From Perna viridis (Eukaryota): 64,000 nt of DNA. How positions within the stretch are numbered: position 1 is the stretch's first letter; the number at the start of each line of letters is the position of its first letter. A program made the position numbers. Where the stretch lies: assembly GCA_037379345.1 (NCBI GenBank), contig CM074512.1, positions 69,957,597-70,021,596 on the forward strand, in the 5' to 3' direction. Shown piece by piece: positions 15,001 through 60,000 of the stretch.

Positions 15001-18000
15001 TATTACCTAATTTTGAATGCATGTTACCAGTATAGTAATCGAAAAAAAATTAATCTGAGAAGTAACATGTAATTGAGTCAATCTAGAAGAGATGTTCATC
15101 ACTAAAAATGGAAGAATCGAAGGATTTTTGTTTTGCTTAAGTCTTTTAATTATGATTTGTTGTAATTATTACGGGAAAATAACATCCACAATTTTGTACA
15201 TTGTCATTGTCGACGTTACAGGCATAAATAAGATTCAGCAGATGGCAATAAACGTTCATTGAAGTTAGGAATTGTTCAATATTCTTTCGATTAGTTCAAT
15301 GTATTAACCATAAAACTAAATACCCATACGAGGTTTGGAAATTAAACATCGATTCTTAAGGAGTGGTACTTGTAAATTTGAAAAATGAACTCCCTCATAC
15401 ATACTATTGTGATGTCACATATTGCATGTTGACACTTTCCAATGCCCATTGAAGAACATTTGATATGTTGATTGATTTTAAGTCAAAAATTGAAAACATG
15501 TACATGTTGGGTCCTTTGGGAGAGAAAGCTGTCTGTTTTTTTTTCCTGTCAAATTTGAATTAAGCCATGGATATTGTCTAGATGATTGGAAGTTGCTTCT
15601 CTGATTGATATTTTGGCAATGACCACAGACTTGATGGAAACAGGATTTCGTGTCAAAGATTCAACAACCTTTGAAACTATGCACAATTGTTTAATACCAT
15701 GAACTGCAGGTTAAGGTCAATTTTCAGCAAAATAAAAAATATAGTTTTGAGTTGGGCCATTTTGGACATTTTGCCATCCCCCTTTTTTCAGTATTGCATG
15801 GTGGGGTGTTCCATCAATGCCCTTTGATCTACTGTGAAGATGAGAATTATATGTTACATGTAATGATACATGTACATTGAATAATATTTTTATTTGAAGG
15901 TTGATATATGGAGTATAATGATACACTGATGTTTTTTTTTATTTGCAGGCTGATATATGGAGTGTAATGATACATTGATGTTTATTTAAATTGCATGCTG
16001 ATATATGGAGTGTAATGATATATTGATGTTTTTATTTGCAGGCTGATACATGGTGTGTATCTATGGCTGGTATAGGAAGTGTAATGACACATTGATGTTT
16101 TTTTATTTGAAGGCTGATCTATGGAGTGTAATAATACATTGGTGTTATTTATTTGCAGGCTGATATATTTTGTGTAATTATACAGTGATGTTTTTTATTT
16201 GCAGGCTGATATATGGAGCTTAGGTATTACGGCCATAGAACTGGCCAAAGGTGAACCACCAAACTCAGAACTTCATCCGATGCGGGTATTATTTCTCATT
16301 CCAAAAAACCCTCCTCCCCAGCTGTCGGGCAACTACTCAAGGTTTTTTAAAGAATTTGTAGAGCTTTGTTTGAATAAGGAGCCTGCAAATGTAAGTTATT
16401 ATTATGTTTAGAATGCTCTATAATTATGCTTCTTGATTGAAAGCCAATTTGAGGAAAGTTTTCCTGTATAGCAGGAAATTTTAACAGAATATATATCTTA
16501 AATGAGAATATCAGAATTGATTTTGCAGAATACTGTCAATTTGGGAATTACCATGCTATTTCTGTTGTAAAAAAAATGGGTTGAAAATGCAGTACATGAA
16601 AGTAAACATCACATTTTGGAATTTTTTATGAATAAAGCAGGAGTTGAATCAATATTGCAAAAAATTGAAATTACTTATTTTGACACCAACGACTAAATAG
16701 TAATTGTAAATGATTATGAATTAATCCTTTTCATTCAAACTACATGTATTTCTGTGGGATTTCAGTGAATTTCTTAGTTATGTTGTGTATAGAGGAAACT
16801 GTTTGAACAGACATGCTGTTGATGCCCCATACTATAAAGATGTAGAGGGTACAATCTTTTTACTGGTCATCAGCCAGTTTGTATGTCAGACCATTAATTT
16901 GTTATCACTCTATTGTCTCTTTGCCTTTTTACTTGTCTGATTTCCCACCAACTTAGATACACTGCTGGTAACCGTAGAAGCTTTGATGGAATTGATTGCC
17001 ACATAAATTCCTCGAGGCAGATCACATGCTAGGACTGAGCAGTGAAAGAAATTAGCAGTAGACCTATGAACCAAGTCTATGTAAAATCAAACAGGTCTAT
17101 GATGAAACTGGCTCAAGTTGCTTTAAAATGTACAGCGCTGTCTATGTAAAATTATGATGGGTCTATGTTGACAATAAATTCAGTTTCTAACACTGGACTG
17201 AGTGTCCAGGGGTTGAGGTGCCACATGCTAGGACTAACTGTCCAGAGGTTGTGGGACCACATGTTAGGACTGAGTGTCCCGGGGTTGTGGGACCGCATGA
17301 TAGAACTGAGTGACTAGGAATTGTGGGACCACATGATAGAATTGAGTGTGCAGGGGTTGTGGGACCACATGTTAGGACTGAGTGTCAGGAATTGTGGGAC
17401 CACATGATAGAATTGAGTGTGCAGGGGTTGTGGGACCACATGTTAGGACTTAATGTGCAGGGGTTGTGGGAACACATGTTAGGACTGAGTGTCCAGGAAT
17501 TGTGGGAACATGCTCACTGTTATTTAATATTCAATACTTCAATATTTTAAGTACAATGTACAATTCCTGTGTGAAAGTGTCAAATCCAAATTTTATTTTT
17601 CTTTTTCACAGAGACCAAGTGCCAAAGACTTATTAAAACATAGATTTATACAGAGAGCTAGGAAGACAACATATCTACAAGATTTAATAGACCGATACAA
17701 ACGATGGAAGTCAGAAAAACCCAACAATGGCGATTCTGATAGTGATGAAAGCGAGCCGTAGGTTTAGTTTTAGTAGTAGTAACAGATATTGATCAAGGAA
17801 CTTGCAACACCATAAAGAGCTGTAAACGCAGTAGAAAAAAAATATGAATGCTTGATGAATTGTTAGGTACTATAAGGCAATTATAAGTATCTAGAGGAAA
17901 ATAGTTAGTAATTTGTTACAATTTCTTCATAAAAATATCATAAGGTGAGAATTTCCTGAAGTCCTGTGTTTTTCCTCAAATCATCAATTTCAAGTGATCT

Positions 18001-57000: not shown

Positions 57001-60000
57001 ACAAGAGGTTCCCAGGAGCCTGAATCGCTCACCTGTTGAATTTTGCCTTACAAAGGCAATAAATTAAACAAGTTGTCCAACAATTTTGACTCAAGAAGTC
57101 TTTGGTAGGACTATTACAAGATCTTTTCAACAATGGAAAGTTTCTTTTAATCTACCATAGTTTTCAAGATATTGACTGAAAACTATTAAAAAAAAAGTCA
57201 TTTTTCCCCTTTCCAGGGCAATAACTCTTACAAGGAGTCTAATGACTTTTATAGTCTTAATAATATGGATCATTTCAGCTATTGAAAGAATTTGGATAAA
57301 CCTAACGGTTTTGGAGATATACGTGAAAAACTACTATCTGACCCCTATGTTCTATTTCTAGTAACGGCAGCCATGTTTTTTTCAACGAATCACAAATCCC
57401 CACATCAGTTCTATGCAGGATACCCCAAGGAACATTCATATCAAGTTTGGTTTCAATTGGTCAAGTACTGTCAGAGGAGAAGATTTTTGAAAGAAATAAC
57501 ATTAAAAATAACATAAATCGTTAAAAAAAGGCAATATCACCAACATGACTCAACATTTTAAAACCAAACTTTGAACAGAGATAGACCTCATCATGCTGAA
57601 CACTTTTACCCTGCCAGAATTCAGTTAAACCTAACGTTTAGGAGATATATGTGAAAAAATACTGTCTGACCCCTATGTTCTATTTTTAGTAATGGCGGCC
57701 ATGTTTTTTGACGAATCAAAAATCCCCACACCAGTTCTATGCAGGATACCCCAAGGAACATTCATACCAAGTTTGGTTCTAATTAGTCAAGCAGTTTCAG
57801 AGGAGAAGAGTTTTGTATAATTCCTAACGACGATGACGGATGCCAAGTGATGGCAATAGCTCACATGGCCTTTGGCTAGGTGAGCTAAAAATCAGAACTA
57901 GTTCACAGTCAGCATCGCACTGAAATAAAAGACTAGATCAAAGACTGACCTGAGATTATATCGAAGACCCTAGAGAATTTTAAGACTGACCTAAGATAAT
58001 ATTGAAGACCCTGGAGAATTTTAAGACTGACCTAAGATAATACTGAAGACCCTGGAGAATTTTAAGACTGACCCAGTGTAGGAAACCACCGCTCGCTAGC
58101 TCGCCAAATACCAGTAGATGTGTAATTTGGTGAGTTCTCATTAGCTTACACTCTTCAATTTGACGACTGTCATTTGATTGGAGAGTTCCAAGGAAAGTTA
58201 ACCAGCCAACCGGTTATTTATTAAAAATATGTTTCCTACATTTTAAGAAGTTTAGCTTGAATATGTTAAGTGAATTTTGGCATGATATGCACAATTTTAT
58301 TGACTTGTAAAGCATTGTTTACAATCTGCCATTTAAATTTCCGGTAAACAGGATGTGCCAAAACCTTCACGACGGTTCAGATCTCATATTAGTATTCAAA
58401 TGAAATTATCTTGGTAATTTATGATATGTTACCTTGCAAATTAGTTGTTTATTGTCACAATAAAAATGAAAAAGAAGCAAATGATAAACATTTTCTTGTT
58501 TCATAATGATGAATCTGCAGAAACATTTTTTAAATATGAGTTCAGAAATGAGTACTTATTCTGTTACTGTAAAGTAAATGAAAAACTTCAAAGGGAGGGA
58601 ATATTCGAAAATGGAAAAGTTTTTGATAAATTTAAAAACAAATGAAAAGATAGTAGAAGAAAGAAAAGGAAAGGCAGAAGATAGTCAAATCCAAGAGAAA
58701 ACAAATGGTAGTACAGAAAAAAACCCAAATATGTGAAGAGCATAGACATTTTTTGAATGAATGGAAATAATTTGGCTAGTTGAATTTATATTTGGCTAGC
58801 AAGGTCAATATTCCACTAGCCAGAATGGCAAGTTGGGAAAAAAAATGGTTTCCCACACTGGTGACCTATGAGATAATATGGAAGACCCTAAAGAATTTTA
58901 AGACTGACCTGAGATAAAATTGAAGATCTTGGAGAATTTTAAGGCTGACCTGAGATAATATTGAAGATCTTGGAGAATTTTAAGACTGACCTGAGATAAT
59001 ATTGAAGATCTTGGAGAATTTTTTTCTTTTCCTTTGTTAGGTCTCCTTGTGCCCTAAAAGCTGAAATGAGGGAAGAGTAAGCTTCCAATTCCATCCTCCG
59101 TAACATCCTTTTGGACTCATCCTTAGACATATCAAGTAGTAATGGCCACATTTTCCCCTGAAAATATAAGACAAATTTATACCTACAAAATTTGCCAGCT
59201 GCAATTTTTTTGTTGCTGAATTCAGAAATTGGAGCCAACATAGGTACAAAAAAAAATGTGATTTAAAAAAAAAAAATAAAATATAACAAGGTCTGCTGAT
59301 GATTATACTGATAAATTCATCAAAATAACCATCACTCATGACAAGATCTAAAACTCATAGTCACTTTTGCATAGAAAAGGGAGCAACAGATGCATCATTG
59401 TATAACCTCTATAAAAATAGTAAATACTTACAGAGATCACCAAAAGGTCTTCCATAAGTGTAAACACACCTTCAAGTTTGTTCTGATAGGCCCCGACAAG
59501 AAAGGTAAAAACAAATCCAACAGAATGATGACAATCCTTTTTAATAAACTAAAAAGTCAAATAACGAAACGAAAGACAGATCAGTGAACCAAGATAGACA
59601 TTAGAGCGAAATCATTCATTTCTAACCAAGCACCATGCGGCAAGCACAACAAACAGCTTGGAAATAGTGAACAAATATTAGAAATCAACAAAAAATCTCC
59701 AAAAACATGCTTCATTCTAAAGTATCTGTTGAAAATTTTGAATTGGATCTTGAGCTTGATATCACAAAGCAATAACCTGTGCTGTTATAAGCAAAGCTGG
59801 GCAAAAAATTTACTTGAAGCTTTTGAAACAAAATAAAATGTAGAAAAAAATGGGTTCAACAAAAAATATTAACATTTATGATAGCCGGACCTGTGCAAGA
59901 ATATTTATGAACCTTGAATATAGACATATTTTAAGAGCATTATATTTAATTAAGTATAGACTTAGACTCAAAATAAAATGTAGCAAAATTATATAGTACT

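What the first reader, a model, noticed from the sequence alone, without database searches (positions are those of the whole stretch)
15860..59021. Recurrent pattern: minisatellites seeded on exon-intron junctions that build decoy splice-site arrays
Seen: three unrelated tandem arrays in two genes have units of 41-46 bp that straddle a splice junction (kinase exon 5 acceptor, EMSY exon 1 donor, donor of a candidate EMSY exon at 48812). Each expands only into the intron, so the exon stays intact. Three of about ten minisatellites here sit on junctions, which are a small share of the 64 kb. Inference: either a junction-biased duplication process or tolerated/selected decoy arrays whose copy number could tune productive versus NMD splicing. 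The arrays could also be raw material for intron sliding or intron gain.
Basis: partly seen in the sequence, partly recalled or inferred. Interest (0 to 1): 0.72.

Follow-up and report, generated by a model that had tools for sequence, protein, structure and literature searches.

The report
Minisatellites copying two mussel splice junctions
Two intronic tandem repeats in a mussel kinase gene and the neighbouring EMSY gene began as duplications across an exon edge and so repeat a splice site several times; this is a known curiosity ("mirage" minisatellites), and here it is no commoner than chance predicts.

Summary
The window is mussel-like DNA, not human. It holds a GCKIII (STK24/25/26-like) kinase gene on the + strand and EMSY on the - strand.

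Two of the three arrays do straddle junctions verified by homology:
- Array A (15859-16218, 8 units of about 46 bp) ends 14 nt inside the kinase "ADIWS" exon.
- Array B (59021-58862, 41-bp units) starts 31 nt inside the first EMSY coding exon. It continues at 58072-57940, beyond a 789-bp inverted-repeat element.

Array C (47925-48848) lies deep in EMSY intron 12. None of 28 named EMSY homologues supports an exon there, and the proposed exon would be 83 nt, which shifts the frame.

So 2 of 21 arrays (2 of 11 large ones) sit on 70 junctions. A random-seed model expects 0.5-1.4, with P(>=2) = 0.09-0.41, so enrichment is not shown.

Growth "only into the intron" follows from geometry. The decoys are strong, and every one would give a premature stop. 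Whether they are used cannot be tested here.

The phenomenon is in print: human F7 IVS7, IFI6 and CBS, and the amphioxus "mirages", with the same intron-gain idea (PMC1557585, PMC3087553).

Verdict: real arrays, a new member of a known kind, most likely tolerated by-products of slippage.

The parts
15859..16218 (+). Array A: 8 head-to-tail units (24-55 nt, mostly 45-49). Each unit is about 32 nt of intron tail (branch-like YTNAY, T-tract, AG) plus 14 nt of exon head (GCTGATATATGGAG). The last unit (16173-16218) is the working junction.
   Evidence: Full-length units are 78-88% identical to the real unit.
16205..16390 (+). Kinase exon K5 ([19 protein letters not shown]...), phase 0 in and out, true acceptor TTATTTGCAG|GCT.
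   Evidence: It is 95% identical to Mytilus STK26-like proteins, and the Pfam Pkinase match is below the cut-off for this single exon.
15900..16159 (+). Decoy acceptors (first base after AG) at 15900, 15949, 16042, 16113 and 16159, scoring 7.8, 16.3, 12.6, 10.6 and 12.3 bits against 14.1 for the true site. A weaker one lies at 16186 (7.5). Each gives an in-frame stop within 0-17 codons.
   Evidence: Array A holds 3 of the 3 intronic AGs scoring >=12 bits and 4 of the 9 scoring >=10 in the kinase gene, in 346 of 17721 intron nt.
58991..59157 (-). First coding exon of EMSY (ATG at 59151, ENT domain start, phase 2 out), donor CAG|GTCAGT. An acceptor-like site sits 6 nt before the ATG, so a 5'UTR exon may lie upstream.
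   Evidence: ENT, E = 5.5e-14.
58862..59021 (-). Array B, proximal part. Unit 1 (59021-58981) is the real junction (31 exon nt + 10 intron nt). Units 2 and 3 are 40/41 identical to it. Unit 4 is older and is interrupted by the element.
   Evidence: Decoy donors at 58950 (9.5 bits) and 58909 (10.5) compare with 10.5 for the true site.
58073..58861 (.). 789-bp element with 16-nt terminal inverted repeats (CCAGTGTRGGAAACCA) and GTCA on both flanks, inserted into unit 4 of array B.
   Evidence: 2 matches in inverted orientation; 0.03 expected. Without it the unit reads through.
57940..58072 (-). Array B, distal part: the rest of unit 4 plus units 5-7, which are 35-38/41 identical to unit 1. All keep G|GTCAGT.
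47925..48848 (-). Array C: about 19 units of 45 bp wholly inside EMSY intron 12, each holding GTAAGT (19 of the 25 GTAAGT on the EMSY sense strand). It is not on a junction.
49359..49487 (-). EMSY exon E12 (donor CAG|GTGGGT, phase 0), the true exon upstream of array C.
47480..47645 (-). EMSY exon E13 (acceptor ATTACAG|AGA, phase 0), the true exon downstream of array C.

Best explanation
These are ordinary intronic minisatellites of a repeat-rich mussel genome. In two cases the founding short duplication happened to span an exon-intron boundary. These are junction-spanning ('mirage', F7-IVS7-type) minisatellites.

Steps shown by the sequence:
- A duplication of 41-46 bp covering a splice site plus 14-31 exon nt leaves one intact junction at the exon-side end of the array.
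- Later gain, loss and homogenisation of units built 7-8 copies. Array B has two young units at 98% identity and four older ones at 85-93%, and the older ones predate a transposon insertion.
- The copies are complete, strong splice-site modules.
- Any use of them would give a premature stop.

Steps inferred:
- The arrays arose by replication slippage or unequal exchange, with no preference for junctions.
- They persist because splice-site choice ignores them and NMD removes the errors.
- For the EMSY donor array, the true site is the most upstream one. This is the site the 5'-to-3' scanning rule selects in human F7.
- For the kinase acceptor array, the true site is the only one followed by real exon sequence. 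The units offer no good donor of their own (mostly 0.4-0.7 bits).

Array C is simply an intronic minisatellite whose unit contains GTAAGT.
For: - Gene models are intact and conserved. EMSY has 24 exons and a 3507-nt CDS, and the kinase has K2-K13. All exons are open and all introns are GT-AG. The exon parts of both units encode residues shared with Mytilus and beyond (KILQDLQYYL, ADIWS), so the exon seeded the array, not the reverse.
- Only 2 of 21 arrays straddle any of 70 junctions. The random-seed expectation is 0.5-1.4 and P(>=2) = 0.09-0.41.
- No unit occurs elsewhere in the window, and no terminal inverted repeats flank array C. The arrays are local products.
- Units differ from each other: A is 78-88% identical to the real unit, and B units 2 and 3 each carry a private substitution. 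This argues against assembly stutter.
- All decoys give stops or frameshifts.
- There are precedents with experiments. In F7 IVS7, identical pseudo-donors stay silent because the most upstream site is chosen (PMC1557585; abstract, Introduction and Discussion read). In the amphioxus BflGb6 and Adh3 mirages at acceptor and donor sides, RT-PCR suggests regular splicing is not disturbed (PMC3087553, section 16 read).
Against: - Two observed is on the high side of the 0.5-1.4 expected, and one 64-kb window has little power to exclude a modest enrichment.
- Post hoc, arrays crowd one end of their introns. The mean relative position is 0.756 in + coordinates (n = 17, one-sided P about 1e-4). Six of 9 kinase arrays end within 150 nt of an acceptor, and one more (19446-19609) seems to run up to the K7 acceptor. 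Uniform seeding does not predict this.
- The decoys are not eroded. Five of 7 decoy units of A keep T-tract + AG, and all B units keep GTCAGT.
- In human IFI6 and CBS the two nearest pseudo-donors are used (PMC1557585, Introduction), so silence cannot be assumed.
- No known positional rule favours the most downstream of several acceptors.
Confidence: 0.7

Rival explanations
1. Regulated unproductive splicing. The decoy arrays are kept because a copy-number-dependent share of transcripts uses a decoy, acquires a premature stop and is degraded, which sets kinase or EMSY output.
For: The decoys are as strong as the true sites. Array A holds the 3 best intronic AGs of the kinase gene. Every decoy gives a stop or frameshift upstream of many junctions, which is NMD-competent by the standard 50-nt rule (the rule is established knowledge). 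Acceptor 15949 (16.3 bits) with donor 16052 (7.6 bits) could define a 104-nt poison exon. Pseudo-donors of such arrays are used in IFI6 and CBS (PMC1557585, Introduction).
Against: There is no RNA evidence of any kind. Identical pseudo-donors are silent in F7, and RT-PCR showed regular splicing in the amphioxus cases (PMC1557585, PMC3087553). High unit identity in B is explained as well by youth as by selection. Nothing shows conservation of the arrays in other species.
Confidence: 0.12
2. A junction-biased (or intron-end-biased) duplication process. Minisatellites in this genome are seeded preferentially at or near splice junctions, perhaps by a process that depends on direction along the chromosome.
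For: Two straddling arrays against 0.5-1.4 expected. Arrays lie near one intron end (mean 0.756, one-sided P about 1e-4, post hoc). Six of 9 kinase arrays lie 0-142 nt from an acceptor. Array 19446-19609 reaches the K7 acceptor region. In amphioxus, mirages were suggested to be 'a more general phenomenon' (PMC3087553).
Against: The straddling count itself is not significant (P = 0.09-0.41). The positional test was chosen after seeing the data. It vanishes in transcript orientation (mean 0.54, P = 0.28), and proximity to the nearest junction gives only P = 0.07-0.12. The third claimed case failed. No mechanism is known.
Confidence: 0.12
3. Assembly artefact. The near-identical units, especially B units 1-3, are stutter or mis-joined reads.
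For: B units 2 and 3 differ from unit 1 by one base each. Tandem repeats are error-prone in assemblies.
Against: Each unit has its own substitutions. The older B units are split by a transposon with flanking duplication. A's units are 12-22% diverged. Reads are not available here.
Confidence: 0.04

Closest known systems
Human F7 intron 7 VNTR, with the IFI6 (6-16), CBS IVS13, LMNB2 and PDGFA minisatellites listed alongside it (Borensztajn et al. 2006, PMC1557585; abstract, Introduction and Discussion read)
   Same: The first monomer spans the exon-intron boundary, so the donor sequence is reiterated in the intron. Units are of similar size (37 bp in F7; 41 bp here). The true site is the most upstream one, as in array B.
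   Different: F7 carries 4 exon nt in the unit, while array B carries 31. In F7, silence of the pseudo-sites and copy-number polymorphism are shown by experiment, and neither is known here. Array A is the acceptor-side counterpart, which that paper does not treat.
[quoted passage not shown] 2010, PMC3087553, section 16 read). The original Adh3 paper (Canestro et al. 2002) was seen only as a citation and is not held.
   Same: Both acceptor-side arrays (3' end of intron + 5' part of exon, like array A) and donor-side arrays occur. Many units keep AG/GT. Units are 81-100% identical with partial homogenisation.
   Different: The globin units are 150-160 bp (Adh3 10-72 bp). The animals are cephalochordates, not molluscs. 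RT-PCR and haplotype differences are available there and not here.
Introns born from tandem arrays or tandem duplication (Zhuo et al. 2007; Rogers 1989; Gao & Lynch 2009, all seen only as citations in PMC3087553; potato RdRp case PMC4974935 and Drosophila cases PMC2891723 seen in search listings only)
   Same: Duplicated AG/GT-bearing segments supply new splice-site pairs. Array C units carry an AG 4-10 nt before GTAAGT.
   Different: No new intron or exon is seen here. All three arrays lie within pre-existing introns of conserved position.
Tandem-repeat-bearing MITEs and Helentrons of bivalves (PMC3879986, PMC7492417; abstracts in search listing only)
   Same: Short satellite-like arrays scattered through bivalve gene regions. 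The window has 21 arrays in 64 kb.
   Different: No array unit recurs elsewhere in the window. No terminal inverted repeats flank array C. The one inverted-repeat element found interrupts array B rather than carrying it.

Membership tests
Junction-spanning ('mirage' / F7-IVS7-type) minisatellite | Head-to-tail array of >=3 similar units of 10-160 bp | tested here: met
   A has 8 units, B has 7 and C about 19.
Junction-spanning ('mirage' / F7-IVS7-type) minisatellite | One terminal unit spans a genuine exon-intron boundary | tested here: met
   Met for A (K5 acceptor) and B (E1 donor), with junctions fixed by homology and phase. Not met for C: 0 of 28 homologues support an exon there, and it lies 280-533 nt from the nearest junctions.
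Junction-spanning ('mirage' / F7-IVS7-type) minisatellite | The splice signal is reiterated in the intronic units | tested here: met
   A has 5 decoy acceptors at 7.8-16.3 bits. B has 6 decoy donors at 5.9-10.5 bits.
Junction-spanning ('mirage' / F7-IVS7-type) minisatellite | Regular splicing uses only (or mainly) the authentic site | not testable with these tools
   No transcript data. It is inferred only from the intact, conserved reading frames.
Junction-spanning ('mirage' / F7-IVS7-type) minisatellite | Unit number varies between alleles | not testable with these tools
   Only a single haplotype is available.
Transposon-borne tandem array (bivalve MITE/Helentron type) | Array lies between element termini, and the unit is dispersed at other loci | tested here: not met
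   Self-BLAST links no array to sequence outside itself, except B to its own distal half and array 40540-41133 to its own flank. No flanking inverted repeats were found around C. Only 64 kb could be searched.
EMSY (ENT-domain, BRCA2-interacting repressor) gene | N-terminal ENT domain and collinear match to named EMSY proteins | tested here: met
   ENT E = 5.5e-14 on exon 1 alone. 24 exons are collinear with M. edulis EMSY-like, 1170 aa. A bromodomain match on E23 occurs as in other invertebrate EMSY.
GCKIII (STK24/STK25/STK26) kinase gene | Kinase domain collinear with named STK24/25/26 proteins | tested here: met
   tblastn of 20 named proteins covers K2-K13. The single exon K5 alone is below the Pfam cut-off (22 bits against 31.7).

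The most novel reading that the evidence does not exclude
Minisatellite birth in this mussel genome is not positionally random. Arrays arise preferentially at the ends of introns, at or next to splice junctions, and on the same chromosomal side in two convergent genes. That would point to a direction-dependent process, such as fork stalling or repair at exon boundaries. Such a process would continually manufacture decoy splice-site arrays, which would make junction 'mirages' a systematic source of poison exons, intron sliding and intron gain in bivalves.
Probability: 0.1. Interest if true: 0.6.

Novelty: new member of a known kind. Interest (0 to 1): 0.25.

Why it matters
As it stands the finding adds two clean mollusc examples, one at an acceptor and one at a donor, to a small published set of junction-spanning minisatellites. 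Both sit in conserved single-copy genes. One has a dated history: old units, then a transposon insertion, then young units.

The examples could be useful natural test cases for how a spliceosome chooses among identical sites. The acceptor side is the more useful, because no simple 'first site wins' rule explains the choice there.

The finding would matter more if a genome-wide survey showed junction or intron-end enrichment, or if the decoys proved to be used in a copy-number-dependent way. Neither is shown.

Tried and rejected
- Candidate EMSY exon ending at 48812: rejected. There is no homologue support (0 of 28), E12 and E13 are contiguous in the M. edulis protein, and an 83-nt exon would break the frame. 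At 28 aa the peptide is too short for the large protein searches.
- Coding repeat on the + strand of array C: the 160-aa ORF at 47850-48332 is the only stop-to-stop frame of >=150 aa in the window. Its Pfam 'hits' have no single stretch passing on its own, and two of the three families are below the curated cut-off. They are summed repeat noise. Rejected.
- RNA genes in the arrays: there are no Rfam matches at gathering score in the window.
- Transposon origin of the arrays: inverted-repeat scans and self-BLAST gave nothing. The first scan (seed 9) missed the element in array B, which was then found by eye and by motif.
- Micro-exon reading of array A units: donor-like sites inside the units score 0.4-0.7 bits, with one at 7.6. 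Unlikely.
For the kinase, 13 named Mytilus proteins were mapped.
- Original papers on mirages (Canestro 2002) and on introns from tandem arrays (Zhuo 2007) are not held.
- Cross-species or genome-wide checks: no eukaryotic genome or read collection is on hand.
- Supplementary files of the papers (for example the alignment of mirage units in PMC3087553) were not seen.
Exons were translated and searched one by one, phases were checked by arithmetic, and split codons were left untranslated.
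Full report
**What the window is.** GC content is 31-34% throughout, and GC skew changes sign near 36 kb. There are no N runs. Single-exon translations were searched on their own. The exon at 16205-16390 (P0001) is 95% identical to STK26-like kinases of Mytilus species. The exon at 59151-58993 (P0002) is 91% identical to Mytilus edulis EMSY-like. The DNA is therefore from a mussel-like mollusc and is not human.

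Named M. edulis proteins P0003 (EMSY-like, 1170 aa) and P0092 (STK26-like, 602 aa) were mapped back by tblastn. They give two convergent genes: the kinase on the + strand (9827-29200) and EMSY on the - strand (59157-37798).

**How the gene models were built.** Exon edges were refined by phase arithmetic and GT/AG search. They were then checked exon by exon.
- EMSY has 24 coding exons and a CDS of 3507 nt, with every exon open in its predicted phase.
- The kinase has exons K2-K13, also all open.
- Every intron is GT-AG.
- This gives 70 junctions. One of them, an acceptor 6 nt before the EMSY ATG, is only putative.

Exons were handled one at a time, and split codons were left untranslated.

**The arrays.** TRF lists 44 rows, which I merged into 21 separate arrays. 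Twelve have period >=10 and >=3 copies, or 11 if the two 41-bp arrays count as one.

*Array A (15859-16218).* It has 8 units. Each unit is about 32 nt of intron tail, with a YTNAY motif, a T-tract and AG, followed by GCTGATATATGGAG. Those 14 nt are the first 14 nt of exon K5 and encode ADIW. The last unit is the working junction. The full-length units are 78-88% identical to it.

*Array B.* Its unit holds the last 31 nt of the first EMSY coding exon (encoding KILQDLQYYL) plus 10 intron nt with the donor CAG|GTCAGT.
- Unit 1 is the real junction.
- Units 2 and 3 are 40/41 identical to it, each with a private substitution.
- Unit 4 is interrupted at 58861-58073 by a 789-bp element. The element has 16-nt terminal inverted repeats and GTCA on both flanks.
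- Units 5-7 follow and are 35-38/41 identical.

So array B was one array of seven units, with an old layer that predates the insertion and a young layer next to the exon. In both arrays the exon-derived part encodes residues conserved in other molluscs. The exon seeded the repeat, not the reverse.

*Array C (47925-48848, 45 bp, about 19 units).* It lies inside EMSY intron 12. Every unit holds GTAAGT, which accounts for 19 of the 25 GTAAGT on the EMSY sense strand. The evidence is against an exon there:
- E12 (ending 49359) and E13 (starting 47645) are contiguous in the M. edulis protein.
- None of 28 named EMSY homologues matches anywhere in 47682-49346.
- The only open stretch ending at 48812 begins after an AG 83 nt upstream and would shift the frame between two phase-0 exons.
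- Its last 40 nt are simply the first, degenerate repeat unit.

The third case fails.

**Is the co-location more than chance?** The arrays themselves are far beyond chance (0 expected in shuffles). For the junction claim I used the relevant null. A founding duplication of the array's own unit length is placed at random, discarded if wholly exonic, and counted if it spans a junction.

| Array set | Expected straddlers | P(>=2) | P(>=3) |
|---|---|---|---|
| All 20 null variants run (5 array sets of 9-21 arrays; whole window or genic span; minimum 1 or 4 exon nt) | 0.51-1.38 | 0.09-0.41 | 0.011-0.155 |

Two observed is unremarkable, and only a genuine third case would have made it interesting.

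The remark that each array 'expands only into the intron' carries no information. With a unit that spans a junction, exactly one end unit is continuous with the remaining exon, and every other unit is by definition on the intron side.

**What the decoys would do.** I built position weight matrices from the window's own junctions, leaving out the site under test. Leave-one-out scores of the true sites average 7.4 +/- 2.8 bits for donors and 7.4 +/- 4.1 bits for acceptors.

| Array | True site | Decoy sites (bits) |
|---|---|---|
| A (acceptors) | 16205: 14.1 | 15900: 7.8; 15949: 16.3; 16042: 12.6; 16113: 10.6; 16159: 12.3 |
| B (donors) | 58991: 10.5 | 58950: 9.5; 58909: 10.5; 58073: 5.9; 58032: 8.7; 57991: 8.7; 57950: 10.5 |

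- Array A holds all 3 intronic AGs scoring >=12 bits in the kinase gene, and 4 of the 9 scoring >=10, in 2% of its intron length.
- Every extended version of exon K5 meets a stop within 0-17 codons.
- Using donor 58950 adds 41 nt, which puts E2 in a frame with a stop after 9 codons.
- The read-through meets a stop at codon 71 before the later donors are reached.

Whether any decoy is used cannot be tested here.

Donor-like sites inside array A units are weak (0.4-0.7 bits), so the units are unlikely micro-exons. One pairing, acceptor 15949 with donor 16052 (7.6 bits), could define a 104-nt poison exon.

**What is known.** Full-text searches show the structure is in print.

*Borensztajn et al. 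2006 (PMC1557585; abstract, Introduction and Discussion read).*
- It shows for F7 that identical pseudo-donors are functional but silent, because the most upstream site is chosen by 5'-to-3' scanning.
- In IFI6 and CBS the two nearest pseudo-sites are also used.
- Array B fits the F7 layout, with its true donor as the most upstream copy.

*Ebner et al. 2010 (PMC3087553; section 16 read).*
- Many units keep AG/GT.
- RT-PCR suggests undisturbed splicing.
- Unit numbers differ between haplotypes.
- It gives an explicit model of intron gain from such repeats.

The first mirage paper (Canestro 2002) and Zhuo 2007 were seen only as citations. Bivalve genomes are reported as rich in short dispersed tandem arrays, often transposon-borne (PMC3879986 and PMC7492417, abstracts in listing). 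Here no array unit recurs elsewhere in the window.

**Best reading.** Arrays A and B are junction-spanning minisatellites of the known kind. Most likely they are neutral or slightly deleterious by-products of slippage or unequal exchange. They are tolerated because splice-site choice and NMD cope with them (confidence 0.7). Array C is an ordinary intronic minisatellite. The rival readings are regulated unproductive splicing (0.12), a junction- or intron-end-biased seeding process (0.12) and assembly artefact (0.04).

After seeing the table of distances, I tested where arrays lie within their introns.
- In + strand coordinates the 17 intronic arrays lean to the high-coordinate end (mean relative position 0.756, one-sided P about 1e-4).
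- Ten lie in the last 13% of their intron and none in the first 13% (counted by eye from the table).
- This means near acceptors in the kinase (6 of 9 within 150 nt; one-sided P = 0.0013 for the kinase alone) and near donors in EMSY.
- In transcript orientation there is no overall bias (mean 0.54, P = 0.28).
- Proximity to the nearest junction irrespective of side gives P = 0.07-0.12.
- Array 19446-19609 seems to continue as a degenerate copy up to the K7 acceptor.

The test is post hoc, two of the EMSY arrays are mere T-rich low-complexity runs, and n is small. I report it as unexplained, not as support.

Noticed in passing
window 10067-58990 (all introns with arrays): Post hoc: the 17 intronic tandem arrays sit towards the high-coordinate end of their introns (mean relative position 0.756, one-sided P about 1e-4; 10 in the last 13% and none in the first 13%). 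That is near acceptors in the + strand kinase (6 of 9 within 150 nt) and near donors in the - strand EMSY. There is no bias in transcript orientation. Unexplained.
   Followed up: partly
window 58073-58861: A 789-bp non-coding element with 16-nt terminal inverted repeats (CCAGTGTRGGAAACCA) and GTCA on both flanks is inserted into unit 4 of array B. It splits one old 7-unit array into the two TRF arrays and shows that the distal units predate it. No second copy occurs in the window.
   Followed up: partly
window 19446-19624: The 30/77-bp array upstream of kinase exon K7 appears to continue as a degenerate copy right up to the acceptor (ctgtctataaacttgttttgattctgtcaacag|AG). It abuts a junction but does not cross it.
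   Followed up: partly
window 15949-16052: Decoy acceptor 15949 (16.3 bits, stronger than the true site) and a donor-like ATG|GTGTGT at 16052 (7.6 bits) could define a 104-nt frameshifting pseudo-exon with an early stop inside array A.
   Followed up: partly
window 47925-48848 (- strand): Each 45-bp unit of array C has an acceptor-like TTCTCTATAG/TTCTAG 4-10 nt before GTAAGT. One unit is a perfect TAG|GTAAGT (10.8 bits at 48436). That puts 19 strong donor motifs deep in one intron.
   Followed up: partly
window 47850-48332 (+ strand): The only stop-to-stop frame of >=150 aa in the window runs through array C, because 45 bp is 15 codons. Its Pfam matches have no individually significant stretch and look like repeat noise.
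   Followed up: yes
window 12562-13024 and 57061-57891; 42582-42772 and 60104-60294: Dispersed repeats at 89-93% identity are shared between kinase intron 4 and EMSY intron 1 (inverted), and between an EMSY intron and the region upstream of EMSY. They are probably transposon fragments.
   Followed up: no
window 59158-59171 (- strand): A good acceptor (TCTTATATTTTCAG|GGGAAAATG) lies 6 nt before the EMSY start codon.
   Followed up: no
proteins P0086 (Lingula anatina) and P0088 (Pangasius djambal), hits to exon K5: Two annotated proteins contain the segment homologous to exon K5 twice in tandem (in the fish, together with the preceding exon). These are whole-exon tandem duplications or annotation run-ons at the same place in the same gene family.
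   Followed up: partly
window 22554-22616, 23283-23357: Two short phase-0 kinase exons match only some of the 20 named kinase proteins mapped (11 and 9 of 20). This fits cassette exons in the variable C-terminal linker.
   Followed up: no
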